Origin: Candidatus Aenigmatarchaeota archaeon | GTDB taxonomy: Archaea > Aenigmatarchaeota > Aenigmatarchaeia > GW2011-AR5 | Assembly (NCBI GenBank): GCA_038045465.1 | Contig: JBBSYB010000014.1 | Span: 1-37,653, forward strand | Direction: 5' to 3' | Length of the DNA: 37,653 bases | Position numbers and translations under genes: made by a program | Notes under the pieces: generated by a model | Database searches by the model: none | What the model was told of the DNA's origin: nothing | What the model saw: only the letters and a program-made list of their open reading frames with translations | Shown: positions 26,176-37,653 of the stretch, piece after piece | Layout of the letters: each line of letters begins with the position of its first letter | Position numbering within the stretch: position 1 is the first letter of the stretch

Positions 26176-27380
26176 TTGCGTTCCTCCAGTATAACCATCG
26201 TCGATCCGAACGGTAAATGAGCAACCTGCCTTCTACCCCCGAAGGACAACCACTCATTGAAATCAATGTAAAAGGCTTCCATGTAGTGCTCTTCCATGGC
26301 TTTGCTCTGTCCTGAATAATACGTCGCGAAGGAAAGTTCCCTGCCTGGCGAAGACACCCTCATACCCATCCTCTCGAAATTTACCTGCTTGCCCTGGCGT
26401 TCTGTGATGAAAGAATTTTTTCTAAATTTCAGAGTGCCGCTGAAGTCCTCACCTACACGATTCACAAGGTTCCAGAATTCAATTTTATCTATACTTACGC
26501 TGTCACACATTCTGGCTGCACGATTCCGTTTGAAATCGCCTGCGCCGTTTTCAGCATCCAGATATCTCATCAGAGCTTTAGGGCTGTGGGCTGTATACAA
26601 GGTTGTTCTGCCGTTATTGTCCAAAACCACATTTCCGTTTTTGTCTAACAGTACCGCAGTGTTCCATCCTATACTGTCTGTAGCTATCCTATATTTTGTA
26701 GATTCATTTGGTGAATATTCACTGATTCGACCTTGGGGAGGTGAAGCATAATCTATCTGGATAACACCTTCGTCGTAGTATTCCAAATTGTATCTTGGCC
26801 AGAATCTCCCTTTGAAATAGTCCCTTCCGGTGTTGATTGCAATATCCATATCAGCGCTGATGGAACTCGGAAGATTGCACAGGTCCTGTTTTAATTGTGT
26901 GACAGCACGTTTTTTTGCTACACGAGGCAACTGGTTTCTGGCACTTTGAGCGTTGTAGTCTATTCCCCACCTCACTTCGTTTATTATGACTTTGACCTGC
27001 TCCTCGTAAGAACCTTCAAGCGGCGGTCTTTCTCTTCCAGCTTTGTCATAGAATTCTTTGTTTATGGGTATTGTTAACCCATAGGATGCCGCACAGGGTC
27101 CGTATCGACCACGAATGTTCATATATTGTGAAAACTTTTCATCGTCAGAAATATTGTAATTATAGATGACACCTTGGAATTCAGTGCGAGCCTTCCGGGA
27201 TGTGTTGATAAAATCTATGTTGTCCGGATATTTAGAAAGCGCAGCTTTTACACACGGCACGCTTTCCTTGGCAACTATGCTCTGCTCATAAGCAGAAGTG
27301 CTTCCCTGCATTTCTCGCATGGCTGCTGACGGGCTTGAGAGATAGAGAAGTGTTGCCAGTCCCGCTACTAGCTTTTTCAT
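26172..27380 (-). CDS. secreted protein of unknown function (about 402 aa)
   Basis: Signal peptide MKKLVAGLATLLYLSSPSAA from the Met at 27380. 4-nt overlap with the downstream gene. Confidence 0.55.
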   Translation of the reverse strand: MKKLVAGLATLLYLSSPSAAMREMQGSTSAYEQSIVAKESVPCVKAALSKYPDNIDFINTSRKARTEFQGVIYNYNISDDEKFSQYMNIRGRYGPCAASYGLTIPINKEFYDKAGRERPPLEGSYEEQVKVIINEVRWGIDYNAQSARNQLPRVAKKRAVTQLKQDLCNLPSSISADMDIAINTGRDYFKGRFWPRYNLEYYDEGVIQIDYASPPQGRISEYSPNESTKYRIATDSIGWNTAVLLDKNGNVVLDNNGRTTLYTAHSPKALMRYLDAENGAGDFKRNRAARMCDSVSIDKIEFWNLVNRVGEDFSGTLKFRKNSFITERQGKQVNFERMGMRVSSPGRELSFATYYSGQSKAMEEHYMEAFYIDFNEWLSFGGRRQVAHLPFGSTMVILEERK

Positions 27381-27513
27381 ATAATAAACTGTCGTAATTA
27401 AGCTTAAATTCAAAACTTTCGATAGTGTGACTTAATATGCGGTCACTGCACCGCTTTCTATATATACGGAATCTGTCATATAATATGAACAGGGAACATG
27501 GAGGTATTTAGCT

Positions 27514-27786
27514 ATGTCTGCACCTTACAAAAGAGGTTACACTCACACAAGATCCAAAGGAAAGGAATCGATGGTTGTATGTACTTATTGCGGAAGAAGA
27601 GTGCCACGCTGGAAGACTTTTGTTCAGTACCGGGGTTTCAGAATAAGCGATCCGGGCCTGCGAAAGCAGATAGATCCCAGATTTGTAAGCGGCTTCCAGT
27701 CCAAGATGTATGTATGCCCTTCCTGTGCACGATATCGCGGCATTGTGCAAGTTGGACGCTCACGGAAGAGCAGAAGAGGTCCGTAA
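27514..27786 (+). CDS. rps26e: ribosomal protein S26e
   Basis: Basic N-terminus, ...VVCTYCGRRVPRWK...KMYVCPSCARYRGIVQVGRSRKSRR matches the eS26 zinc-ribbon pattern. GGAGGT lies 8 nt upstream. Confidence 0.65.
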   Translation: MSAPYKRGYTHTRSKGKESMVVCTYCGRRVPRWKTFVQYRGFRISDPGLRKQIDPRFVSGFQSKMYVCPSCARYRGIVQVGRSRKSRRGP

Positions 27787-27806
27787 AATGACTATGGTGA
27801 CTGTGG

Positions 27807-30800
27807 ATGGTAGATAATGTAAAAACGAAAAAGGGAACCAAACTTAGGGGAGCCCTTTACAGAAAATTGCATAGCAAAAAAACTGTTATAAACGGAACCC
27901 GTGCAGGCCAGATGCTATTATGCATGCGAAAAACCGAGGAACCTAAGTTCAGGTTTGAGCCGATGAAATCCCTTATCACATTACCGCGGCCTTCTGACAT
28001 AAAAATAAGCGGTATTGTTTATCCTCTGATAAAACCCTATTCTTATGCCAATATACATTACGACGCCAAGGAAGGTGCTGTAGTATACGATATTATCGAG
28101 CCAAAGCTCAACGAAAAGGAAATATTCATACTCAAAAAGGTTTATGATGGCTTGGTGCAGATAATAGATATTACCCTATCGGACATAAAGGAAAAGGAAA
28201 AGATGATTGTATTCCTTGAAAAGAGCGTTACCCGTCTTCTGGATGAATATGAGATTAAGGTAAGCGAAAAGGAATACGTAAAGATAATGTATTATATTTT
28301 TCGCGACCTGGTTGGCCTCAACCGTATAGAGTCGCTTCTCAATGACCCATACATCGAAGACATAGGATGTGATGGAACAGGAATAGCAATCTATGTTGTG
28401 CACCAGAAGTTTGGTTCTGTGAAGACAAACATTGTTTACCATGAAATCAAAGAGCTGCGCGAATTTGTCACGAAACTCGCGGAAAGATGCGATAGATACA
28501 TCAGCTATGCGGATCCACTACTGGATGGTTCGCTACCGGACGGAACTCGAGTACAGGCATCGCTGGCCAGCGACGTAACTACGCGCGGGCCTACATTCTC
28601 AATAAGAAAGTTCCGCGAAGAGCCAATTTCTCCAGTGGACATGATACGGCTCAATACAGTCTCGGCTGAAATGCTCGCTTATCTATGGTTCTTGATAGAG
28701 AACGACATCAACATACTGATAGCAGGAGGCGTAGCAACTGGCAAAACCAGCCTATTGAACAGCATATCATTTTTCATTCCACCCGAGGCAAAGATAGTCT
28801 CAATTGAGGACAGTGTTACCGGCGACGCGGAAATGCTGATTAAAAGAAACGGAATTGCCGAACTTGTAAAGATAGGCGACCTTGTGGACGAGATGATAAA
28901 CAAGTATGGAAGAGACAAAGAGCACGGCGAAAACAAAGAAGGTATAGAAGTCCTTACCATGGATAAAAACTGCAAAATAGAATTCCAGAAACCCTCTGCA
29001 TTCATACGCCACCTGGTAAACAAAGATATTTATGAAGTTACAACAGCCACAGGCAAAAAAGTAAAGGTCACAAAAGACCATTCTTTATTCGGTCTGGATG
29101 ATTATGGAAACGTGATAGAGGCAAAACCCGAAGACCTGGAAAAAATCAAATTCATCGCAACACCACGCTGCATACCTTACGAAGGGAGTGAAATAACAGA
29201 AATAAATCTGATTGAGCATCTCGACAAACTTAGTGGAGAGTTTCTTACAGGTGCACCTATTTCACGAATTTTTGAAATCCCTTACGACGAATTCAAAAAG
29301 ATAGGCGTTGACAAAGGCAAATACGCATGGTGGAAAAGAAAATCAATGGTATCAACGGACGTTTTTGCGCAATTATCCAACAAAACCACATTTACTAGGG
29401 ACGAAATTGAGCAGATAAGAATAATTGGAAAAAGATCATGCGTTTCTATGCCTGTAATTTTCCCAATAAACGACAACTTTCTCAACTTCTTGGGCTTATG
29501 GGTTGGCGACGGTTGTTATGACAGCAGAAATAAAAACAGGGTAATCATTTCGAACATTGACAAGGAATGCATAGAAGCAGTTAGAAGGCTCGCAGCTTCT
29601 CTAAATATAAACGTAAGCCTGATGTCTGATAACGTTTCAATGAGCCTCAATTCCACCTTGCTGTACAAAGTCATGAAAAACGTCCTCGGCTTTGACGGAC
29701 ATGCGGATACAAAGCGCATACCCACCTTTATACAAAACACATCTAACGGGCAGATATCTGAGTTCTTGAAAGGCTACTTCTCTGCTGACGGAACCGTTAA
29801 AAATTACGAAGCTTCATGTTCGTCACAGAGCCTCGGGTTGCTCAATGATATCCAGACGCTTTTGCTGAGATTTGGCATTATATCAAGAATTTCTCACTAT
29901 ACAAGAAAGGACAAATGCAGAGATCTTTCTATATCATCCAGCGAAAATATATCAAAGTTCAGGCGTATAGGATTCCTTCAGGAAAGGAAGTCCTCAAAAA
30001 TAGAAATACTGGCTAGTAGGCATTCGCACCATACTAAAACAGATATAATTCCGCTCGGCGGAGAACTTGCGGCAGAGATAAATCAGTACCAAAAATTATC
30101 TTTCCCTTACATGAATGGAATGCAGAACATTGGAAGACAATACCTGCAAACTATTGTACGCGACTGCGAGTCCCAGATGCTTCATCAGCTCGCAGAGTCA
30201 GATATATTCTGGGACAAAGTAAGAGATGTAAGAATAATGCCAAGTGAGGAAATTTATGTTTATGATCTTAGCGTTCCGGAGAATGAAAGCTTCGTGTGCT
30301 CGAATATAATCCTCCACAATACACGCGAACTAAACCTGCCGCACGAAAACTGGATACCTGGCGTTGCGCGAACAGGCTTTACTGGCACAGGCGTCGGCGA
30401 GGTCACGATGTTCGAGCTACTGAGAGAGTCATTTAGACAAAACCCGGACTACCTGATAGTCGGAGAAATAAGAGGCAAGGAAGCCTATGTCATGTTCCAA
30501 GGTATGGCGTCTGGTCATCCGTCTATCTCAACTATCCACGCTGGCGGCGTCGAAGATCTCATGAAAAGACTGCAAACAAAACCCATAAGTCTTTCTGTCG
30601 GCCTGATAGAAAGCTTGGACATGGTAATAGTTATGATACACGCGCGCGAGAAAGGAAAGTCAGCGCGACGCGTGAAGGAAATTGTCGAGATAGAAAGCAT
30701 AGACATCAATACAGGCGCCCCGCACAGCGTAAAGTCATTTGTGTGGATACCAGCTGAGGATATCTATGAGTACAGGTCAAATTCGTGGCTGCTTAACAAG

Positions 30801-30995
30801 GTCTCTACGGAGAAAGGAATACCTATGAGCGTCATAGTCAGCGAGATAGCGAAAAGGAAAAAAGTTTTGATATGGATGCTTGAAAACAACATAACGAACA
30901 TGAAAGATATTGCAAAGTACGTAAGCCTTTGTCATCAAAGCCCTGAAAAGATGGCAAGGATTTTGGCAGGCGAAAAAATGCTGGGCGACGAATAA
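27807..30995 (+). CDS. FlaI/VirB11-family (T2SSE) secretion ATPase, intein-containing precursor
   Basis: Walker A IAGGVATGKTS, Walker B/Asp box IVSIED...TRELN (split by the intein), His box GHPSISTIHAG. N-terminal YPLIKPYSYANIHYD...YDIIEPKL is typical of FlaI. The extein sum is 559 aa. Confidence 0.8.
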   Translation: MVDNVKTKKGTKLRGALYRKLHSKKTVINGTRAGQMLLCMRKTEEPKFRFEPMKSLITLPRPSDIKISGIVYPLIKPYSYANIHYDAKEGAVVYDIIEPKLNEKEIFILKKVYDGLVQIIDITLSDIKEKEKMIVFLEKSVTRLLDEYEIKVSEKEYVKIMYYIFRDLVGLNRIESLLNDPYIEDIGCDGTGIAIYVVHQKFGSVKTNIVYHEIKELREFVTKLAERCDRYISYADPLLDGSLPDGTRVQASLASDVTTRGPTFSIRKFREEPISPVDMIRLNTVSAEMLAYLWFLIENDINILIAGGVATGKTSLLNSISFFIPPEAKIVSIEDSVTGDAEMLIKRNGIAELVKIGDLVDEMINKYGRDKEHGENKEGIEVLTMDKNCKIEFQKPSAFIRHLVNKDIYEVTTATGKKVKVTKDHSLFGLDDYGNVIEAKPEDLEKIKFIATPRCIPYEGSEITEINLIEHLDKLSGEFLTGAPISRIFEIPYDEFKKIGVDKGKYAWWKRKSMVSTDVFAQLSNKTTFTRDEIEQIRIIGKRSCVSMPVIFPINDNFLNFLGLWVGDGCYDSRNKNRVIISNIDKECIEAVRRLAASLNINVSLMSDNVSMSLNSTLLYKVMKNVLGFDGHADTKRIPTFIQNTSNGQISEFLKGYFSADGTVKNYEASCSSQSLGLLNDIQTLLLRFGIISRISHYTRKDKCRDLSISSSENISKFRRIGFLQERKSSKIEILASRHSHHTKTDIIPLGGELAAEINQYQKLSFPYMNGMQNIGRQYLQTIVRDCESQMLHQLAESDIFWDKVRDVRIMPSEEIYVYDLSVPENESFVCSNIILHNTRELNLPHENWIPGVARTGFTGTGVGEVTMFELLRESFRQNPDYLIVGEIRGKEAYVMFQGMASGHPSISTIHAGGVEDLMKRLQTKPISLSVGLIESLDMVIVMIHAREKGKSARRVKEIVEIESIDINTGAPHSVKSFVWIPAEDIYEYRSNSWLLNKVSTEKGIPMSVIVSEIAKRKKVLIWMLENNITNMKDIAKYVSLCHQSPEKMARILAGEKMLGDE
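28812..30320 (+). mobile_element. intein (503 aa) with LAGLIDADG homing-endonuclease domain
   Basis: Ser1 (SVTGDAEM), block B TKDHSLF, LAGLIDADG motifs LGLWVGDGCYD and LKGYFSADGTV, block F VYDLSVPENESF, block G ILHN followed by Thr+1. Confidence 0.8.
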
Positions 30996-31049
30996 GCCCT
31001 TTTGGAAAAAGCGCTTGCGGAAAAATAACAAGAAGCCCTTTTGGAAAAA
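30996..31049. repeat. bipartite hairpin element, copy A, with 17-nt direct duplication
   Basis: aagcccttttggaaaaa occurs at 30994-31010 and 31033-31049. aaagcgcttgcggaaaa (31008-31024) is identical to 33454-33470. Confidence 0.6.
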
Positions 31050-31070
31050 TAATGAAATAAGTGTATTATT

Positions 31071-31742
31071 ATGAATAAAATTCCTTCTGGTGTGAGCGGT
31101 CTTGACGAGATTCTTGGCGGCGGCATCCCGGAACGCTATACTATCCTTCTCACAGGAACCTGCGGTTCCGGCAAGACCGTAATGGGGCTTCAATATCTCC
31201 TTTCTTCAAATGACCCGGGCATCTATGTCAGCTTCGAAGAGGAAGAGGATAGCATAAGAGAAACAGCGAAAACATTTGGCTTTGACATAGCAAGGCGCGA
31301 GGCCGCTAAAAAATTCGTCATACTGAAATACGATCCCTTCCGCCTTGAGGACATACTAGAGGTAATAGAAAATAACATACGCGAGATAGGCGCGAAGCGT
31401 GTCGTGTTCGATTCCGTAGCAGCTTTGGGAATATATCTAAAGGACTCTTCTGAACTGAGGAGAATGATACTTCAGATAGACCGGATTATGAAAAAGAACA
31501 AGTGCACCACAGTGATAATTTCAGAGATAGTTCCCGGAAGCTCGTCGTTGTCAAGATTTGGGGTCGAGGAGTTCGTTTCCGACGGTGTTATCGTTCTTGA
31601 TAATATAAATGTCAGGGGCGAGTACAAGCGAGCCGTTACGGTATGGAAACTGCGTGGAGTCGATCATTCTAGACGCGTACATCCATATAATATTACAAGT
31701 CGCGGCATTGTTATAAACCCAAAAACCGTTTTCGTGAAGTGA
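31071..31742 (+). CDS. single-domain KaiC/RecA-superfamily ATPase (FlaH-like)
   Basis: IPSGVSGLDEILGGGIP, Walker A LTGTCGSGKT, Walker B RVVFDSV. At 223 aa it is similar in size to FlaH. Confidence 0.65.
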   Translation: MNKIPSGVSGLDEILGGGIPERYTILLTGTCGSGKTVMGLQYLLSSNDPGIYVSFEEEEDSIRETAKTFGFDIARREAAKKFVILKYDPFRLEDILEVIENNIREIGAKRVVFDSVAALGIYLKDSSELRRMILQIDRIMKKNKCTTVIISEIVPGSSSLSRFGVEEFVSDGVIVLDNINVRGEYKRAVTVWKLRGVDHSRRVHPYNITSRGIVINPKTVFVK

Positions 31743-31755
31743 TCGTGGTGGCTGT

Positions 31756-32622
31756 ATGTACAAGACCATAATAAAACATCTAGGAAGCTTTGGTTCACAC
31801 CACTTTGCAAGCTACCTTAAGCCGCTGCGTGAAGAAGTGATAAAATCAAACCTCAACATACTCTTTGAACTCTATGTTGGCAGGATGATATTCCTGTCAA
31901 TTATGGCATTTTTGCTTTCATCCACGTTCATATTTGTCGTGTTTTCAATCATAAGAGCCGACTTTTTGCTCTCTTTAATAGGCTCGCTTGTAACAGGTAT
32001 TGCAATAGGTTTTACTGTTCTCACGCTGTATCACTCCTATCCATTTCATATTCTCACGAACAAGAAAAACAGCATAGAAGGCAACATGCCCTTTGCCATA
32101 AACCACATGGCAGCCATATCAGCCAGTGGTGTTCCGCCTTTTGTCATGTTCAAGCTGCTGACAAACATACCTGAGTATGGTGAGGTATCCAATGAAGCAA
32201 AGCGTATAGTCAGGAATGTTGACGTGTTCGGCATGGACGTTGTTTCTGCGATGCGCAATGTATCTGAGAGAACGCCTTCTGTGGAATTCAAACACTTTGT
32301 GTACGGAATAATCTCGACGATAGAAACCGGCGGTGATCTTAAGCGATACCTTGAGAATGCAGCAAAGGACGCACTTTTTGATTACAGGTTAAAAAGAGAA
32401 AAATATGTACAGACTCTTGCCACTTATGCAGACTTCTATACGGCTGTCCTTATTGCCGCCCCGCTTTTCTTCGTTTCTGTGCTGTCGGTCATGTCCATGG
32501 TAGGCGGCACGATAATGGGACTAAGCATACCCAATGCCATGAGAATAGGTGTCTATGCCATGATGCCGCTGATGAATATAATGTTTATAATGTTTATACA
32601 CTATACGCAACCTTCGGTGTAA
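31756..32622 (+). CDS. type II secretion F-domain membrane protein (FlaJ/TadB-like, N-terminal half equivalent)
   Basis: 288-aa polytopic ORF with a cytoplasmic helical domain between TM blocks, directly after the ATPases. Confidence 0.55.
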   Translation: MYKTIIKHLGSFGSHHFASYLKPLREEVIKSNLNILFELYVGRMIFLSIMAFLLSSTFIFVVFSIIRADFLLSLIGSLVTGIAIGFTVLTLYHSYPFHILTNKKNSIEGNMPFAINHMAAISASGVPPFVMFKLLTNIPEYGEVSNEAKRIVRNVDVFGMDVVSAMRNVSERTPSVEFKHFVYGIISTIETGGDLKRYLENAAKDALFDYRLKREKYVQTLATYADFYTAVLIAAPLFFVSVLSVMSMVGGTIMGLSIPNAMRIGVYAMMPLMNIMFIMFIHYTQPSV

Positions 32623-32626
32623 ATCC

Positions 32627-33433
32627 ATGAAAAAAATCCAGATGAACCTGAAAATATTGAGTGTTATAACACTTAGCGTTGGCGGAGTCGCACTGCTGAT
32701 TAATTTTATTTTTCTTTCTGTATACCCGACAATTTACGCTTTTGTTAATGTTGGCGCTGCTGTGGTAATAATCGGATTGCCTCTCCTCTACAAATTCAAT
32801 AAGTTCAAAAAAATAAGACTGATAGAGGAATTATTTCCTAAGTATCTCAATGATATAGCATCGAACATAGCCGCAGGCATGACACTACCGCAGGCTATAC
32901 GCGCGACAGCTAACATAGAATACGGAGTGATGACTCCTTACGTGCGTGAAATAGCTTCCAAAGTTTCCTGGGGCATAACATTTGAGCGCATAATGAATGA
33001 TTTTGCGAAAAAGACTGGCAGCAAAGCAATGAAGAGAAACGTCCAGACCATAATAGAAACGCACCGATCCGGCGGCTCCATGGATACCATAATGCGGTCG
33101 GTTGCCCAATCTCTTGTGGAACTGGAGAAAATTAAAAAAGAAAGGTCTGCCTCGGTTTATGCACAGATGATAAACGGCTATCTTATTTTCTTCGTTTTCC
33201 TTGGCGTAATGATAGGACTTTCATCAGTACTGGTCCCGGCCTTCCAAATGAACGAGCAGCAGGAGGATCTCCGGGGCGTCTTCAGCGAGATTTTCCGCGC
33301 GCTCATAATTGTACAAGGGTTTTTCGCTGGCCTTTCCATTGGAAAGATGGCCGAGGGCTCTCTCATAGCAGGCATAAAACACTCCTTAGTGATGGTTGTA
33401 ATAGGTTACTCGGCTTTCCTGCTGTTCGGGTAA
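32627..33433 (+). CDS. type II secretion F-domain membrane protein (FlaJ/TadC-like, C-terminal half equivalent)
   Basis: 268-aa ORF starting 4 nt after the previous stop, with the same TM / helical-domain / TM layout. Confidence 0.55.
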   Translation: MKKIQMNLKILSVITLSVGGVALLINFIFLSVYPTIYAFVNVGAAVVIIGLPLLYKFNKFKKIRLIEELFPKYLNDIASNIAAGMTLPQAIRATANIEYGVMTPYVREIASKVSWGITFERIMNDFAKKTGSKAMKRNVQTIIETHRSGGSMDTIMRSVAQSLVELEKIKKERSASVYAQMINGYLIFFVFLGVMIGLSSVLVPAFQMNEQQEDLRGVFSEIFRALIIVQGFFAGLSIGKMAEGSLIAGIKHSLVMVVIGYSAFLLFG

Positions 33434-33475
33434 GCCCTTTTCTTTGGGAAAGAAAAGCGCTTGCGGAAAAGAAAC
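33434..33475. repeat. bipartite hairpin element, copy B (most complete)
   Basis: Begins at the base after TAA. 9-bp stem cttttcttt-ggg-aaagaaaag (33437-33457), mini-stem cgc-tt-gcg, tail gaaaagaaac. Confidence 0.65.
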
Positions 33476-33608
33476 ATATTATAAATATAAAAAGGGTCTC
33501 ACTGGTGTTCGGATAAAGTTTATATATTGGGAAAGTACAGCTATTATTGATGAACAAAGATGATAATCATCGATATGTCGCAATGATGATTACCATTAAT
33601 GAAGTGTT

Positions 33609-34526
33609 ATGATGACTACAGAAGAAAGGATAACAGACATCGTGGATAATTCCTCCTATGGTCTTACGGTGGAAGAGCTCTCTTTGAAAATGCGTATAAA
33701 CGAAAAAAGCACCCTGCTGTTTCTTGACAGGCTTGTCGCGGAAAAAAAAGTTAAGAAGACGCGGGCGGGCAGCATGTTTTTCTACAGGAAATTTATCATA
33801 ATTATACCTATTATGCTGGTCTTTCTCATGGGAACGGCCAGTGCTCAGGACATCAACAGCACAAACTTCAAGATTATCCCGGTCCTGGACAGCGCCGGCA
33901 CCCGCGCCCAGAGCACCACCTATGTGCTTTTTGGCAGCGTCGGCCAGATATCAAGCACTACAACTTCTGTGTCATTTAGTTTATGTTCCGGCTTCCTGTG
34001 CAATTTCCTCGAACTAATACTCCACGGAAAGATAACATTCCTGCTGGAGTTTAACATAAGTGGGAATGCCAATGACACGGCTTTTGTTGACAACTACACA
34101 CAAACTACACGGCAATACACAACGAGCGACCTCAATAATTATTATGCCTGCCTGCAGGACGTTAATTTGACCAGTAGCCCGACCTTTGGCATAATCTACG
34201 CAGGCTCGGCACTCAACTACATAAACATATCCTCAGGCAACTCATTTGTACTGAGGCTGTCGCAGGACATTCCAGGAAACAAGTTCATAATTCCTATAAC
34301 AAGCGGCAACTGCACTGTTTTCAATACTAGAACAGCGGAAATCGCGCAATATGGAACGCTGCTGCAGCCGTTTGTGCTGGCGAATGAGGCTATTAATGCC
34401 ATTGAACTGGCGCTGAGCTATCCTTCGGTGCAGATTGCAGGCAGCTTTGACAAGAGTGGCGCCTTTGGACTTATATTCGAGAAGAATGAGACGAATGAGA
34501 ATCAGATAATAGTGAAACCGGTGTAG
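33609..34526 (+). CDS. membrane-tethered winged-helix protein with sequon-rich extracellular domain
   Basis: The N-terminal 60 aa align by eye with the soluble wHTH at 35259..35441 (LTVEELS.K..I..ST....L..L...K.V......G..F). Then a single TM (FIIIIPIMLVFLMGTASA) and about 225 aa with many N-x-S/T sites. Confidence 0.55.
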   Translation: MMTTEERITDIVDNSSYGLTVEELSLKMRINEKSTLLFLDRLVAEKKVKKTRAGSMFFYRKFIIIIPIMLVFLMGTASAQDINSTNFKIIPVLDSAGTRAQSTTYVLFGSVGQISSTTTSVSFSLCSGFLCNFLELILHGKITFLLEFNISGNANDTAFVDNYTQTTRQYTTSDLNNYYACLQDVNLTSSPTFGIIYAGSALNYINISSGNSFVLRLSQDIPGNKFIIPITSGNCTVFNTRTAEIAQYGTLLQPFVLANEAINAIELALSYPSVQIAGSFDKSGAFGLIFEKNETNENQIIVKPV

Positions 34527-34530
34527 CAAT

Positions 34531-35262
34531 ATGAAGGGAGATTTAATCAGCGGAGTTGTGGCGATTATAATAGTCGTCAGCTCGACGATCCTTGTGCTCA
34601 ATACAATAAACCCTTTTGTTCAGGAGAGCCAGGATTTTCAGGCATTCAATGAGGCTGAGCAGACTTTGAAATCGATAGACGCGGCTATAAACCAGCTGTT
34701 TGTCGAGGCCCCTGGCGCCAGGCGCACGCTTGATGTAAATGTGCGCAGCGGAAGGCTTGTCGTGTCAGGAACTGAAAACAAAATAAAGATAAGACTGGAG
34801 AACACAAACCTTTTCAGCTCTGGCGTGCGCAGGCAGGAAGGTAACATACTCATATCTAGCGGCGCAGTCATGAATACCTATGAAAGTGATATAGACGGGG
34901 ACGGCAACACGGACCTTGTGCTGGAAAACGGCGTACTGATTTTTGCCATCAAGAAGATTGGCACGCCTTCGGTCCACGGCGTTGTCAACACTACAAACAT
35001 GATAGTTCTTATGCGCAACAAGGTCCTTGATTTAAATGTCAGCTATCCACGCAGCGGCATTTTTATCAATGACAAACAGAACAGCGCTTATGGCGTCGGC
35101 TATACAGAACTTACAAGGCTCGGCCAGAATATTGCTACCAGCTCTATTCATATTTATGTAAATGCCACTCAGGCCAATATGGCTTATGATGTTTCTTTCA
35201 CCCTTGGCGCTTCCCAGGATTTCATTGAGATGCAGGCCACACGAGTTGTAGGAGCTTCATGA
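34531..35262 (+). CDS. archaellin / archaeal type IV pilin-like protein (class III signal peptide)
   Basis: MKG|DLISGVVAIIIVVSSTILVLNTINPFVQ: short basic leader ending in Gly, a hydrophobic helix, and an L-x-N-T-x3-V-Q motif resembling the archaellin N-terminal domain. Confidence 0.5.
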   Translation: MKGDLISGVVAIIIVVSSTILVLNTINPFVQESQDFQAFNEAEQTLKSIDAAINQLFVEAPGARRTLDVNVRSGRLVVSGTENKIKIRLENTNLFSSGVRRQEGNILISSGAVMNTYESDIDGDGNTDLVLENGVLIFAIKKIGTPSVHGVVNTTNMIVLMRNKVLDLNVSYPRSGIFINDKQNSAYGVGYTELTRLGQNIATSSIHIYVNATQANMAYDVSFTLGASQDFIEMQATRVVGAS

Positions 35263-35441
35263 AAATGATAGAAGAGAATATACTCAAATGCCTCAAAAAA
35301 CAGGACATGACGATAGAAGAGGTTTCTAATAAGATTAACATAAGCCGCAGCACCGCATCAAAATACCTTCTGGTTCTAGAGACAAAAGGCTTTGTAAGAT
35401 GCCGCGAGATTGGAAGAGCAAAGCTTTTCTCTTTGAAGTAA
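35259..35441 (+). CDS. small winged-helix DNA-binding protein (60 aa)
   Basis: MTIEEVSNKINISRSTASKYLLVLETKGFV. 4-nt overlap with the preceding gene. Confidence 0.6.
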   Translation: MKMIEENILKCLKKQDMTIEEVSNKINISRSTASKYLLVLETKGFVRCREIGRAKLFSLK

Positions 35442-35473
35442 AATCAGAAACAGGAATCTTGCAAAATCCATGC

Positions 35474-37653
35474 TTAATGACTGAAGAATGAATTTACCTT
35501 TTCTTTTTTCTTGAAACTTTTCCGGAATTTGAAGATTACCAGCGCTGCAATGGCAATTCCTATTATTATGCTTACAGGCAGCGGATTTACCACGAGTAAC
35601 GTCTCAACGAGCTCTTTAATTGTGGACGTTTTTTCGGTTACGATTGTGTCAGGTGAATTCTTTCCCGGAACTGTTGTGCTGCTTGATGCACTTGTTGTGT
35701 TTGTTGTATTTGTTGTTCTTGTTCCTGTATTTGTTCCACCGCTGCCTGAAACTGAACTTGACAGGCATGTTGGAATTCCGGAGCGGCAGTCAACGCCTCC
35801 GGTGCTGCAGGTTGGTGCATAACAGTCCATCTGACACAGGCAATAATTTTCGTTTGACTGGCACACACCGTCACCGCAGGACAGCTGACCGAGATAGAAG
35901 TATCCCGCGTTGCCGAACGTGACAGAGTTTCCGTTTTCATCGGAAGCTGCCAGATCTATCTTATAAGCTCCAGTGCTTGTGGCGCGGATTGTTTTTGTCC
36001 AGTTTCCTGTTGTAAGAACAAGGTCTGCGCTTATGGTTGATCCCGGATTACTTATTGAAGCGGAGACGGACTTCACTGCGCTCCCCTGGTCTATAATATC
36101 TGCTTGTATTGACACGTTGGTCGGTGAGCTGGGATTAAGCGGAGTTATTTTCAGCGAACGGAACTCAGGCGGGTTTTTGTCAACAAATATTATTTTTGAT
36201 TTTGTTGTTGCATGGTCAAGCTTGTCGGTTGCTGCTATCGTGACATTGTACGGGCCGTCTGCCAGCGAACTAAAATCATACTGGCTTGTGCAATACAAAA
36301 TATCGCTTTGCTGCAGGCATGACATTAGTTTTGTTACTCCTAGGATGGTGTAGGAAACTTTCTGGCTGTCGCCATTCGGGTCATTTACCCTTACGTTTAT
36401 CGTTAGAGTGGCTTTTGTATAATTCGCGCTCTCTATTATTATTTCGGGGTTTGTGTTGTCTATGATAAGAGTTCCGGTGTCTTTTATGTCATAGCTAAGG
36501 ACGTTGCTTGCCGATGCTCTCAAGTCGTAAATTCCGTCAGCGAAAGTGTTTGTATTGAATGGATAGGTGCACTGCGTAAAACCAGAGTTGCAACTCATAG
36601 CAGTGCTCAGCGATTGGGATCTGTTCACGTCAAGCGTAACGGCCGTTATTATTCCACCCGGTCTTGTGATTGTTGCGGTAAATGTTATGTTGCCCTTTGC
36701 ATAATTCTTTGGCGTTAGTATCACGAATGGGCGGGAGTTGCGGAAGGTTACGGGCACAACGGAAGAATTGGAGTTGCCGGCGACGTCGTAGACGGTGAAT
36801 GTTATGCTGTAATCATTGTCGGCAAAGTTTTTTGTTTTCACGGTGCTACTGCAGACATTTCCAGAGCAGGCAAGTGGATAGGACTGATTTATGAAATATG
36901 TAACCCTTGTGGTATTCACACCGGAAAATTGGTCGCTGACATTAACGGAAAATATTTTATCATCATTCAATATACTGCCTGATGCTGGTGACGTCACTAA
37001 AAGCAACGGTATCTCATTGTCTATGCTGACATTCACTTCAGCCATGTTGTAGTTGCCCACGTTGTCAGCAGCGCGCACTTTTACGCTTATAATCTGGTTG
37101 TTTGCATAAGGATAGGTGTTGAGGTAGCCTGTCAGGTTTGCCATGGGCGACCATCCCGATCCAGTAGAGAATTGGATCGTTGAAAGGTTCACGCCGGAAA
37201 CTTCGTCAGTGGCGCTAATATTAAGCGTCGTATTTCCGAAAACATAGGTATAGTTCTTTGGATGAATAAATGTTATCTTGGGCGGGGTACGGTCTATCTT
37301 GAATCTCAGCGGGCTTGTCGGACTTCCCAAATTTCCGTAATCAGTATCCTTTGCCGTGAAATAGAAAAATTCCAGGGTATCGCTTCCTGCTATTGAAAAG
37401 GAAACGGATTTTGTGCAGATCCAATTGTCTGCGGCGTACTGGGTGCACTGCATGGTGTAGTTGTCCCAGGACTCGTTGTTCATGTACGCATCTTCTGATA
37501 TCAACGATAGCCATACGTTATTGGTATCTAGGCTAGTGCTGGTTATATTAACAAAGAAATAAACAGAGCCGCGGCCAAAGTAGCTGTTGTTTGCAGGAAG
37601 CGAGTCAAACATCAAAGGTGCTGCATTACCTACGGCAAAAAACACAAAGAATA
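35474..37653 (-). CDS. giant cell-surface protein with tandem Ig-like domains, Cys-rich module, Thr-rich stalk and C-terminal TM anchor (5' end outside window)
   Basis: Reading frame open to the window edge. Recurrent domain-boundary motifs IDRTPPKI, IDNEIPLL, IDNTNPEI, VDKNPPEF. CGDGVCQSNENYCLCQMDC module, TNTGTRTTNTTNTTS linker, and ...NPLPVSIIIGIAIAALVIFKFRKSFKKKEK tail. Confidence 0.65.
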   Translation of the reverse strand, partial: FFVFFAVGNAAPLMFDSLPANNSYFGRGSVYFFVNITSTSLDTNNVWLSLISEDAYMNNESWDNYTMQCTQYAADNWICTKSVSFSIAGSDTLEFFYFTAKDTDYGNLGSPTSPLRFKIDRTPPKITFIHPKNYTYVFGNTTLNISATDEVSGVNLSTIQFSTGSGWSPMANLTGYLNTYPYANNQIISVKVRAADNVGNYNMAEVNVSIDNEIPLLLVTSPASGSILNDDKIFSVNVSDQFSGVNTTRVTYFINQSYPLACSGNVCSSTVKTKNFADNDYSITFTVYDVAGNSNSSVVPVTFRNSRPFVILTPKNYAKGNITFTATITRPGGIITAVTLDVNRSQSLSTAMSCNSGFTQCTYPFNTNTFADGIYDLRASASNVLSYDIKDTGTLIIDNTNPEIIIESANYTKATLTINVRVNDPNGDSQKVSYTILGVTKLMSCLQQSDILYCTSQYDFSSLADGPYNVTIAATDKLDHATTKSKIIFVDKNPPEFRSLKITPLNPSSPTNVSIQADIIDQGSAVKSVSASISNPGSTISADLVLTTGNWTKTIRATSTGAYKIDLAASDENGNSVTFGNAGYFYLGQLSCGDGVCQSNENYCLCQMDCYAPTCSTGGVDCRSGIPTCLSSSVSGSGGTNTGTRTTNTTNTTSASSSTTVPGKNSPDTIVTEKTSTIKELVETLLVVNPLPVSIIIGIAIAALVIFKFRKSFKKKEKVNSFFSH

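What the first reader, a model, noticed from the sequence alone, without database searches (positions are those of the whole stretch)
28812..30320. 503-aa LAGLIDADG intein inserted exactly in the Walker B / Asp-box of the filament ATPase
Seen: the protein reads ...KIVSIED|SVTGDAEM...CSNIILHN|TRELNLPHENW. Deleting 28812..30320 restores IVSIEDTRELN, the conserved catalytic motif of FlaI/VirB11/GspE ATPases, and leaves a 559-aa extein. All splicing blocks are recognisable: Ser1, T-x-x-H, two LAGLIDADG motifs, VYDLSV, and HN followed by Thr+1. Established: inteins target catalytic motifs of P-loop ATPases. From memory, the KlbA mini-inteins of methanogens and Thermococcales lie in a homologous secretion-ATPase family but begin with Ala and lack an endonuclease. 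Inference: this is a full-length, possibly homing-competent intein, perhaps at a different insertion site, and filament assembly would depend on protein splicing.
Basis: partly seen in the sequence, partly recalled or inferred. Interest (0 to 1): 0.6.

Follow-up and report, generated by a model that had tools for sequence, protein, structure and literature searches.

The report
Homing intein splitting a pilus-motor ATPase
A self-splicing, mobile protein insert (an intein carrying its own homing endonuclease) really does interrupt the magnesium-binding "Asp box" of a pilus/archaellum-type motor ATPase in a tiny DPANN archaeon; it is a genuine but fairly ordinary member of an intein allele common in these archaea.

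Summary
ORF 27807..30995 (+) encodes a 1062-aa precursor. Residues 336-838 (nt 28812..30320) are a 503-aa class-1 intein with Ser1, TKDH, two LAGLIDADG motifs, VYDLSV and HN|Thr+1. Removing it gives a 559-aa FlaI/GspE-like ATPase that aligns without a gap across IVSIED|TRELN to A. fulgidus GspE and S. acidocaldarius FlaI.

Two corrections:
- The site is the Asp box, not Walker B. Walker B is DYLIVGEIRG, about 45 residues downstream.
- The host scores below NCBIfam's FlaI cut-off, so it is a type IV filament ATPase of unresolved type.

The KlbA comparison was tested. Methanocaldococcus KlbA inteins sit in the His box (GHDG|A…SN|CSGTLHA), 67 residues downstream, so this is a different allele.

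It is not rare. At least 111 protein clusters, the named ones all DPANN, carry the same intein at the same junction. None of 38 order-level relatives with an ortholog does. Five same-genus genomes have an empty site, and four carry an unrelated intein at a different site (EDIG|CDG). The sister genome shows a recombination breakpoint within 5 nt of that other site. I found no paper describing the allele.

Verdict: a real new member of a known kind, of modest interest. The genome's roughly 24 inteins in 0.9 Mb is the more striking side observation.

The parts
27807..28811 (+). N-extein coding region (residues 1-335) of the FlaI/GspE-like ATPase. It includes Walker A GGVATGKTS (nt 28725-28751) and the first half of the Asp box, IVSIED.
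   Evidence: The N-terminus MVDNVKTKKGTKLRGALYRK is conserved in G006 and in P0002/P0003.
28812..30320 (+). 503-aa class-1 intein with a LAGLIDADG homing endonuclease (precursor residues 336-838).
   Evidence: Pfam Intein_splicing, LAGLIDADG_3 and Hom_end. PI-PkoII by sequence, E 7e-22. Foldseek to 2cw7, 7qss and 1dq3. 111 homologues with the same junction.
28812..28826 (+). Splicing block A, SVTGD. Ser336 is the N-terminal nucleophile.
   Evidence: S336 and G339 are invariant in alignment A1.
29070..29081 (+). Splicing block B, T-K-D-H (T422...H425).
   Evidence: T422, D424 and H425 are invariant in A1.
29490..29519 (+). First LAGLIDADG motif, LGLWVGDGCY, with catalytic Asp568.
   Evidence: G567, D568 and G569 are invariant in A1.
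29766..29798 (+). Second LAGLIDADG motif, LKGYFSADGTV, with catalytic Asp661.
   Evidence: D661 is at least 90% conserved, and G662 and K665 are invariant.
30258..30320 (+). Splicing blocks F and G: VYDLSVPENESFVCSNIILHN, with penultimate His837 and terminal Asn838.
   Evidence: D820, H837 and N838 are invariant.
30321..30995 (+). C-extein coding region plus stop. Thr839 (+1) begins TRELN, the second half of the Asp box. Walker B DYLIVGEIRG is at nt 30447-30476 and the His box GMASGHPSISTIHAG at nt 30501-30545.
   Evidence: T839, R840 and E841 are invariant.
28367..28368 (+). Empty 'site A' (YIEDIG|CDG). It is occupied by an unrelated 477-492-aa Cys1 intein in same-genus genomes G003, G005, G006 and G009. 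The G000/G006 recombination breakpoint lies within 5 nt of it.
31071..31742 (+). Single-domain KaiC-family ATPase. It is FlaH-like in position but below the ArlH cut-off.
   Evidence: Pfam KaiC E 2e-62. NCBIfam ArlH scores 43 bits against a cut-off of 215.
31756..33433 (+). Membrane platform protein encoded as two T2SSF-domain genes (31756-32622 and 32627-33433), resembling the two halves of ArlJ/FlaJ.
   Evidence: Pfam T2SSF in both. Each matches one half of the NCBIfam ArlJ model, below cut-off.
34531..35262 (+). Candidate type IV pilin-like protein. The N-terminus MKG|DLISGVVAIIIVVSSTILVL looks like a class III signal peptide.
   Evidence: Sequence read directly. Only a weak DUF7289 match, E 1e-3 and below cut-off. 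This assignment is an inference.

Best explanation
Nucleotides 28812-30320 encode a canonical class-1 intein fused to a two-motif LAGLIDADG homing endonuclease. It is inserted between Asp335 and Thr839 of the Asp box (IVSIED|TRELN) of a FlaI/GspE2-clade type IV filament assembly ATPase, in a small-genome (0.9 Mb) DPANN archaeon.

Shown:
- the anatomy of the intein
- the contiguous extein alignment across the junction
- the conservation of the catalytic residues
- the polymorphic distribution among relatives

Inferred mechanism of splicing: the 1062-aa precursor is translated whole. Ser336 makes an N-O acyl shift. The hydroxyl of Thr839 attacks the resulting ester. Asn838, helped by His837, cyclises to release the roughly 58-kDa intein. 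An O-N shift then leaves a native peptide bond, recreating IEDTRE in a 559-aa ATPase.

Inferred consequence for the host: the Asp-box acidic residues coordinate Mg2+ in this family. The precursor should therefore be catalytically dead, and filament assembly should depend on splicing.

Inferred mechanism of spread: the freed intein acts as a site-specific endonuclease on intein-free alleles of the strongly conserved target (protein [30 protein letters not shown]) and is copied in by double-strand-break repair. This fits its sporadic presence, its absence from all close relatives sampled, and the mosaic sequence of the host gene.
For: - Frame and junctions.
- Pfam: Intein_splicing at 86.7 bits and LAGLIDADG_3 at 83.7 bits, both well above cut-off, with T2SSE split in two.
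- Exteins: the spliced extein aligns gap-free over the junction to 2OAP (E 3e-111) and to FlaI.
- Intein relatives by sequence: PI-PkoII, E 7e-22, and TFIIB and CDC21 inteins.
- Structure: AF2 precursor model with mean pLDDT 82, and about 75-97 per 10-residue block over the intein. Foldseek places the extein on 2OAP (TM 0.70) and the intein on PI-PkoII (TM 0.69), the TliVMA intein (0.76) and PI-PfuI (0.62).
- Same allele elsewhere: 111 of the 120 best hits share [IV][IV][ST]IED|S[VI]xGD...HN|TRE[LI] (S[VI]TGD in nearly all), with inteins of 480-533 aa.
- Conserved catalytic residues: S336, T422, H425, D568, D820, H837, N838 and T839 are invariant and D661 at least 90% conserved among 64 precursors. 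The endonuclease core is as conserved as the splicing blocks, 0.80 against 0.79.
- Empty sites: found in 15 relatives' genes, with identical or nearly identical protein (up to 5 of 30 residues differ, none in SIED|TREL) and differences that are mostly synonymous in the DNA.
- Relatives: 38 of 40 order-level relatives have an ortholog with an uninterrupted Asp box, and none has this intein.
- Tree: the extein tree puts G000 sister to G006, which carries a site-A intein, with 100/99 support.
- Mosaic: G000 and G006 are 97% identical up to 5 nt past site A, 86-92% from there to 31340, and 98% again beyond.
- Asp-box function: PMC5424180.
Against: - No experiment was done. Splicing, endonuclease activity and inactivity of the precursor are all inferred.
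- The nearest homologous intein is only 59% identical. No recent donor is sampled, and dN/dS could not be used to test current selection on the endonuclease.
- The direction of the G000/G006 recombination event is unresolved. Both are equally distant from G005 and G002 in the divergent tract. The mosaic may therefore record movement of the site-A intein rather than of this one.
- Identity along the whole locus is patchy, so some mosaicism is background.
- A 42-44%-identical intein-free paralog exists in the same genome. Dependence of the cell on this particular ATPase is therefore not established.
Confidence: 0.92

Rival explanations
1. The intein still splices, but its endonuclease is no longer active. 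On this view it is a 'stuck' intein inherited vertically in this lineage, and its sporadic distribution reflects losses elsewhere rather than recent homing.
For: The closest homologous intein is only 57-60% identical, so no recent donor is evident. Over distant carriers, intein identity (median 50%) tracks extein identity (median 48%; r = 0.65), as long co-descent would predict. The direction of the recombination tract is unresolved.
Against: Both LAGLIDADG acids and the surrounding motifs are invariant or nearly so in 64-111 homologues. The endonuclease core is as conserved as the splicing domain, which is not expected of a decaying domain. G000 is nested among site-B-free genomes: sister G006, then G005, then G002. 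Vertical descent would therefore need several independent precise losses.
Confidence: 0.3
2. The intein has been co-opted as a conditional switch. Splicing would be triggered or blocked by an environmental cue such as redox state, temperature or host contact, so that filament assembly is controlled after translation.
For: The insertion is in a motif essential for catalysis, so the precursor is a natural 'off' state. Conditional splicing is documented for other archaeal inteins (cited, reference 76). Residues 840-872, just after the intein, are disordered in the precursor model.
Against: There is no direct evidence. Ser1 and Thr+1 lack the cysteines used by the known redox-controlled inteins. 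Close relatives manage with no intein at this site. Insertion in a catalytic motif is equally explained by the homing endonuclease's need for a conserved target.
Confidence: 0.1
3. The insert is a degenerate, non-splicing relic and the gene is effectively a pseudogene, with the intein-free paralog on contig C66 doing the work.
For: A 576-aa intein-free paralog with an intact IISIEDTSE Asp box exists in the same genome.
Against: The frame is open over all 1062 codons. Every residue needed for splicing is present and invariant in the family. The exteins are 95.6% (N-extein core) identical to the sister genome's protein, with changes mostly synonymous. That indicates purifying selection on the host gene.
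Confidence: 0.04

Closest known systems
PI-PkoII / Tko Pol-2 intein (PDB 2CW7), and other archaeal LAGLIDADG inteins (PI-PfuI 1DQ3, TliVMA 7QSS, PI-SceI)
   Same: The architecture is the same: a HINT splicing domain split by a two-motif LAGLIDADG endonuclease plus extra DNA-binding regions. PI-PkoII is the best sequence match in the PDB (E 7e-22) and a strong fold match (E 6e-26, TM 0.69).
   Different: The host gene and insertion site differ: a DNA polymerase, VMA or RNR rather than a secretion-type ATPase. Sequence identity is only about 20%.
KlbA inteins of Methanocaldococcus (Mja KlbA, PDB 2JMZ/2JNQ)
   Same: They sit in the same ATPase superfamily (PF00437, PilT/VirB11-like), also inside a catalytic motif, and have a HINT fold.
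   Different: - The KlbA site is the His box (AMNTGHDG|ALAYDEP...AVSN|CSGTLHANS). That corresponds to P402|S403 of this extein, 67 residues downstream of the Asp-box site.
- KlbA starts with Ala, not Ser, and has Cys+1, not Thr+1.
- In Methanocaldococcus it is a 168-aa mini-intein without an endonuclease.
- The KlbA extein is only about 36% identical to this one.
- The KlbA intein was not among the PDB hits of this intein at E <= 0.01, nor of the whole precursor at E <= 10.

Sources.
A. fulgidus GspE (2OAP) and S. acidocaldarius FlaI (4II7)
   Same: These are the closest solved relatives of the spliced host protein, at E 3e-111 and 3e-80. They have the same N-terminal domain plus RecA-like C-terminal domain, and the same Walker A, Asp box (IEDTRE / IEDTPE), Walker B and His box.
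   Different: Neither carries an intein. This protein scores 380 bits against NCBIfam FlaI, whose cut-off is 550. Its KaiC-like and split T2SSF neighbours are also below the ArlH and ArlJ cut-offs.
Multi-site intein host genes, such as haloarchaeal MCM with four sites (PMC10643990)
   Same: One conserved P-loop ATPase gene is invaded at several nearby sites by unrelated inteins, with different site occupancy among close relatives. Here the sites are EDIG|CDG, LPDG|SR, IED|TRE and GMA|SGH in the orthologs, plus the KlbA site in homologs.
   Different: The host gene and lineage differ. Interference between neighbouring inteins has not been tested here. The only indication is that none of the 120 site-B carriers also carries a site-A intein.

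Membership tests
Class-1 intein (HINT splicing domain) | In-frame insertion whose removal restores a contiguous, conserved host protein | tested here: met
   The spliced 559-aa extein aligns without a gap across IVSIED|TRELN to 2OAP and 4II7, and to 15 intein-free genes of relatives.
Class-1 intein (HINT splicing domain) | N-terminal Cys/Ser nucleophile, block B TxxH, block F Asp, penultimate His with terminal Asn, and a Cys/Ser/Thr at +1 | tested here: met
   Ser336, T422-K-D-H425, D820, H837-N838 and Thr839 are present and invariant in 64 aligned precursors.
Class-1 intein (HINT splicing domain) | Profile match above the curated threshold, and HINT fold | tested here: met
   PF14890 scores 86.7 bits against a cut-off of 35.8. 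Foldseek matches intein structures with E from 6e-26 to 1e-14.
Class-1 intein (HINT splicing domain) | Autocatalytic protein splicing | not testable with these tools
   This needs expression and detection of the products.
LAGLIDADG homing endonuclease (intein-borne, two-motif monomer) | Two LAGLIDADG motifs, each with the catalytic acidic residue, in an alpha-beta-beta-alpha-beta-beta-alpha core | tested here: met
   LGLWVGD568G and GYFSAD661G are present. PF14528 matches twice, at 83.7 bits against a cut-off of 22.5. The acids are conserved in homologues. The fold matches PI-PkoII, PI-PfuI and I-DmoI.
LAGLIDADG homing endonuclease (intein-borne, two-motif monomer) | Site-specific cleavage of the intein-free allele, and homing | not testable with these tools
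   Support is indirect only: empty sites in relatives, sporadic distribution and a mosaic host gene.
KlbA intein allele (InBase klbA site) | Insertion at the His-box site GHxG|C(S)xxT(L)HA of an MJ0781-type ATPase | tested here: not met
   The KlbA site was mapped in Methanocaldococcus loci L031, L032 and L036. This intein sits 67 residues upstream, in the Asp box.
KlbA intein allele (InBase klbA site) | Ala1 (alternative splicing mechanism) and Cys+1 | tested here: not met
   Here the residues are Ser1 and Thr+1. KlbA loci read G|ALAYDEP...SN|C.
Archaellum ATPase FlaI/ArlI (NCBIfam NF058587 equivalog) | Score above the curated cut-off | tested here: not met
   The spliced extein scores 380.4 bits against a cut-off of 550.
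Archaellum ATPase FlaI/ArlI (NCBIfam NF058587 equivalog) | Operon with ArlH, ArlJ and archaellins | tested here: inconclusive
   The neighbours are a KaiC-like ATPase (ArlH 43 bits against 215), a split T2SSF platform (ArlJ 96.6 against 550) and one pilin-like ORF. No archaellin, ArlF or ArlG was recognised.
PilT/VirB11-like secretion ATPase superfamily (PF00437) | Walker A, Asp box, atypical Walker B plus catalytic Glu, and His box, in that order | tested here: met
   GGVATGKTS (307-315), IVSIEDTRE (330-338), DYLIVGEIRG (378-387) and GMASGHPSISTIHAG (396-410) in the spliced protein. PF00437 scores 90.8 bits.

The most novel reading that the evidence does not exclude
The ATPase gene may be an intein battleground in this DPANN genus, where unrelated inteins at neighbouring sites replace each other by homing-linked gene conversion. 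Site A is EDIG|CDG and site B is IED|TRE, 148 codons apart.

G000 (B+, A-) and its sister G006 (A+, B-) are 97-98% identical on both sides of a roughly 1.5-kb tract (excluding the intein) that is only 86-92% identical. That tract starts within 5 nt of site A and spans site B. A single double-strand-break repair event may therefore have swapped one intein for the other.

The genus ranges from 0 to about 24 inteins per genome of about 1 Mb. That would make it a natural system for studying intein invasion, interference and loss, in what may be the most intein-dense cellular genome described.
Probability: 0.3. Interest if true: 0.6.

Novelty: new member of a known kind. Interest (0 to 1): 0.35.

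Why it matters
Taken alone, this is one more LAGLIDADG intein in a P-loop ATPase motif, which is the textbook pattern. It does add three things:
- The secretion/filament ATPase superfamily hosts inteins at many more sites than the classical KlbA one. These are EDIG|CDG, LPDG|SR, Asp box and GMA|SGH in this ortholog group, plus Walker A and post-Walker B in a paralog of the same genome.
- DPANN archaea, barely sampled in published intein surveys (2 genomes and 1 intein in PMC10643990), can be extremely intein-rich.
- In organisms thought to depend on surface filaments for host contact, the assembly motor has to be made by protein splicing.

The Ser1/Thr+1 intein may also interest protein engineers, because it leaves a native IED-TRE junction.

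Tried and rejected
1. The paper on the KlbA precursor structure (PMC2206692) is not held. I mapped the KlbA site instead from Methanocaldococcus genomes found with the KlbA intein sequence. That sequence came from memory and was verified against PDB 2JMZ.
I could not test whether intein-plus and intein-minus alleles coexist in the source sample.
3. I tested whether the same intein has jumped between paralogous ATPases, and rejected it. All 109 carriers tested are closer to this protein than to the C66 paralog.
4. I tested whether the site-A or site-C inteins of relatives are related to this one by ectopic transposition, and rejected it. They are only 21-24% identical.
5. Using G005 and G002 as outgroups did not decide which of G000 and G006 is the recombinant. 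The distances are symmetrical.
6. Base composition does not mark the intein as foreign: intein 40.3% GC, extein 44.1%, genome 41.6%.
7. The listing of cluster members gave no organism names for the nearest carriers.
8. Literature searches for inteins with DPANN, FlaI, VirB11 or pilus ATPases found no description of this allele. This covers the held library only.
Full report
**1. Is it there?**

Yes. The window has one uninterrupted 1062-codon frame at 27807..30995 on the + strand. Translating 28812..30320 gives 503 residues, SVTGDAEM...CSNIILHN. They are flanked by ...[11 protein letters not shown] on the left and TRELNLPHENW on the right. The two exteins together are 559 aa.

Pfam finds Intein_splicing (86.7 bits on the intein alone; cut-off 35.8), LAGLIDADG_3 twice (83.7 bits; cut-off 22.5) and Hom_end. 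The T2SSE ATPase domain is split in two.

The spliced extein aligns end to end with A. fulgidus GspE (2OAP, E 3e-111) and S. acidocaldarius FlaI (4II7, E 3e-80). There is no gap at the junction: query 'akivsiedtrelnlphenw' against target 'akvvsiedtreiklyhenw'. The precursor itself matches these proteins in two pieces that end and resume at residue 336/838.

These are Ser336, T422-K-D-H425, LGLWVGD568G, GYFSAD661G, VYD820LSV and H837-N838|T839.

**2. Which motif is interrupted?**

The spliced protein has these motifs in order:
- Walker A: GGVATGKTS, 307-315
- IVSIEDTRE: 330-338
- DYLIVGEIRG: 378-387
- GMASGHPSISTIHAG: 396-410

In the PilT/VirB11-like family these are Walker A, Asp box, the atypical Walker B with its catalytic Glu, and the His box. 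The E336A mutant of FlaI in 4IHQ falls in the GEIR stretch, which fixes the position of Walker B. The intein is therefore in the Asp box, not in Walker B.

In this family an Asp-box glutamate coordinates Mg2+ in place of the usual Walker B acid, and mutations in these motifs abolish activity (PMC5424180). It follows by inference that the precursor is inactive until spliced. In the AlphaFold model of the precursor (mean pLDDT 82), the intein is confidently folded, while residues 840-872 just after it are disordered.

**3. What kind of intein is it?**

By sequence, the nearest solved relative is PI-PkoII (2CW7, E 7e-22), followed by TFIIB and CDC21 mini-inteins.

By fold, the extein part of the model matches 2OAP (TM 0.70) and FlaI. 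The intein part matches PI-PkoII (E 6e-26, TM 0.69), the endonuclease-bearing TliVMA intein (TM 0.76), PI-PfuI, PI-SceI and free LAGLIDADG enzymes such as I-DmoI.

It is a standard class-1 intein with an inserted two-motif LAGLIDADG endonuclease. The +1 Thr is the native Thr of the archaeal IEDT(R/P)E Asp box.

**4. How common is it?**

A word-indexed search restricted to the intein region returned 432 proteins at E <= 1e-3, among 8000 candidates scored. The best 120 all also carry PF00437.

Of those 120, 111 have the same junction, [IV][IV][ST]IED|S[VI]xGD ... HN|TRE[LI] (S[VI]TGD in nearly all), with inteins of 480-533 aa. Where sources give names, they are Pacearchaeota, Nanoarchaeota, Micrarchaeota or Aenigmarchaeota. 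Several JGI product names already read 'ATPase VirB11/archaellum biosynthesis ATPase/intein/homing endonuclease'.

The window's genome is 0.91 Mb in 94 contigs and 82% complete, which fits a DPANN archaeon. The allele is therefore widespread and pipeline-annotated. I found no paper that describes it. A recent survey table lists only 2 DPANN genomes with 1 intein (PMC10643990).

**5. Is the endonuclease likely alive?**

In an alignment of 111 homologous inteins, the LAGLIDADG core (mean top-residue frequency 0.80) is as conserved as the N- and C-terminal splicing regions (0.79). In 64 aligned precursors, G567, D568, G569, G662 and K665 are invariant and D661 is at least 90% conserved. The splicing residues S336, T422, H425, D820, H837, N838 and T839 are also invariant.

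That is the pattern of a domain under selection, not of a decaying one. The nearest homologue is only 59% identical, so I could not test current selection in this lineage.

**6. Intein-free alleles and other sites**

A six-frame search of 40 relatives found an ortholog with an uninterrupted Asp box in 38. None has this intein.

In the same genus, G002 (87% identical protein), G010, G007, G004 and G008 have no intein in the gene. Around the site the protein is identical or nearly identical ([30 protein letters not shown]; up to 5 of 30 residues differ, none in SIED|TREL). The DNA differs at 11-25 of 90 positions, mostly synonymously.

Other sites found in orthologs:
- **Site A.** Four same-genus genomes (G003, G005, G006, G009) carry a 477-492-aa intein at YIEDIG|CLPEHE...FTHN|CDG, with Cys1 and Cys+1.
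- **Site C.** Two same-family genomes (G013, G015), and the roughly 1500-aa proteins P0002-P0006, carry another at QGMA|SIPG...LHN|SGHPS.
- **LPDG site.** P0008 and its kin carry one at LPDG|SIDYNE...CCHN|SRV.

The site-A and site-C inteins are only 21-24% identical to this one, so they are independent invaders.

A third, distant T2SSE-like ATPase in the same genome (C85, a 1406-aa frame) holds two inteins. One is a mini-intein in Walker A (SSGK|CLSGDT...VHN|SS). The other is a full-length intein after Walker B (IIGEVRS|SIPG...LLHN|TE).

**7. KlbA**

The Mja KlbA intein sequence, which I recalled from memory, was verified against PDB 2JMZ (E 8e-109). I then used it to fetch Methanocaldococcus and Methanothermococcus loci.

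Their precursors read ...VAMNTGHDG|ALAYDEPIYL...GLAVSN|CSGTLHANS.... Aligned with this extein (HSPs end at residue 401 and resume at about 405), the KlbA site corresponds to P402|S403. That is in the His box, 67 residues downstream of the Asp-box site and 4 residues from site C.

KlbA exteins are only about 36% identical to this protein. KlbA was not among the PDB hits of this intein at E <= 0.01, nor of the whole precursor at E <= 10.

One caveat: Micrarchaeota loci L037 and L039 have Ala1 inteins at the KlbA site that do contain a LAGLIDADG domain (LAGLIYGDGHI). The mini form is not universal.

**8. Signs of recent mobility**

An extein tree (IQ-TREE) places G000 (site B) sister to G006 (site A) with 100/99 support. 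The pair sits inside (G002 none, (G005 site A, (G000, G006))).

After removing the inteins, nucleotide identity between G000 and G006 along the locus runs as follows:

| Window nt | Identity |
|---|---|
| 27807-28372 | 97% |
| 28373 to about 31340 | 86-92% |
| 31341-32240 | 98% |

The middle tract covers the rest of the ATPase gene, including site B, and the start of the KaiC-like gene. Site A lies at 28367|28368, so the left breakpoint is within 5 nt of it.

Such a tract is what break-induced gene conversion at an intein site would leave. However, both genomes are equally distant from G005 and G002 in the tract. I cannot say whether G000 received 'empty A + intein B' or G006 received 'intein A + empty B'.

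Identity is patchy elsewhere in the locus too, so this is suggestive rather than proven. None of the 120 site-B carriers also has a site-A intein. Eight have B+C and three have LPDG+B.

**9. The host system**

The spliced protein's best NCBIfam model is FlaI, but at 380 bits against a cut-off of 550. The downstream genes are:
- a single-domain KaiC-family ATPase, far below the ArlH cut-off
- two consecutive T2SSF genes that together resemble ArlJ
- a 243-aa ORF with a class III signal-peptide-like N-terminus, MKG|DLISGVVAIIIVV

This agrees with an earlier first-reader note on the locus.

'Type IV filament assembly ATPase' is safe. Whether the filament is an archaellum or a pilus is not settled.

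**10. Verdict**

The element is a new member of a known kind, and its allele is common in DPANN data. Interest is modest.

The more unusual facts are contextual. One ATPase family is invaded at many sites, there is a possible intein swap between sister genomes, and the genome's intein load is very high (see the items noticed in passing).

Noticed in passing
Whole genome G000 (contigs C10, C11/C43, C14, C28, C41, C43, C47, C56, C60, C64, C66, C67, C68, C70, C81, C85, C91; loci L044-L062): This 0.91-Mb, 82%-complete genome holds about 24 inteins in 19 genes. The hosts are a radical-SAM enzyme, MetK (its intein is broken across two contig ends), this ATPase, MCM, a DEAD helicase, PolB (2), a CDC48-like AAA (2), RpoA'', an SRP54-type GTPase, RNR (2), aEF-2, TopoVI-A, a nucleoside phosphorylase, eRF1, a DNA methylase (weak), RadA, FttA/aCPSF1 (2), a third T2SSE-like ATPase (2) and HerA. 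That is roughly 26 per Mb, above M. jannaschii (19 in about 1.7 Mb, from memory).
   Followed up: partly
Relatives G001-G040: Intein load varies enormously within one genus. Intein_splicing matches range from 0 in G004 (90% complete, 8 contigs) and 2 in G010 to 25 in G005 and 33 in G000, the highest of 41 relatives. Fifteen of the 41 genomes in the order have none.
   Followed up: partly
G000:C85:22092-26309 (L061): A third, divergent T2SSE-like ATPase sits in a 1406-aa frame. It carries a mini-intein inside Walker A (SSGK|CLSGDT...VHN|SS) and a full LAGLIDADG intein just after Walker B (IIGEVRS|SIPG...LLHN|TEAL). Pfam recognised nothing in its exteins at E < 1e-5.
   Followed up: partly
L037 and L039 (Micrarchaeota MAGs, genome contigs): These loci carry Ala1 inteins at the KlbA (His-box) site that include a LAGLIDADG endonuclease (LAGLIYGDGHI...). 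They look like full-length relatives of the Methanocaldococcus KlbA mini-inteins.
   Followed up: no
window 27514-27786 (+): A 90-aa ORF lies immediately upstream of the ATPase. It has two CxxC pairs (CTYCGRRVP...CPSCARYRG) and a basic tail, and looks like ribosomal protein eS26. I did not check it with a profile.
   Followed up: no
window 26531-37653 vs G006:C62 (L063): Nucleotide identity to the sister genome is strongly mosaic along the whole 11-kb syntenic stretch. Blocks of 95-100% alternate with blocks of 70-90%, which suggests frequent recombination among these populations.
   Followed up: partly
G000:C68:13474-16173 (L057): The eRF1 intein carries an HTH_3 (Xre-type) domain in addition to two LAGLIDADG motifs, which is an unusual accessory DNA-binding module.
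   Followed up: no
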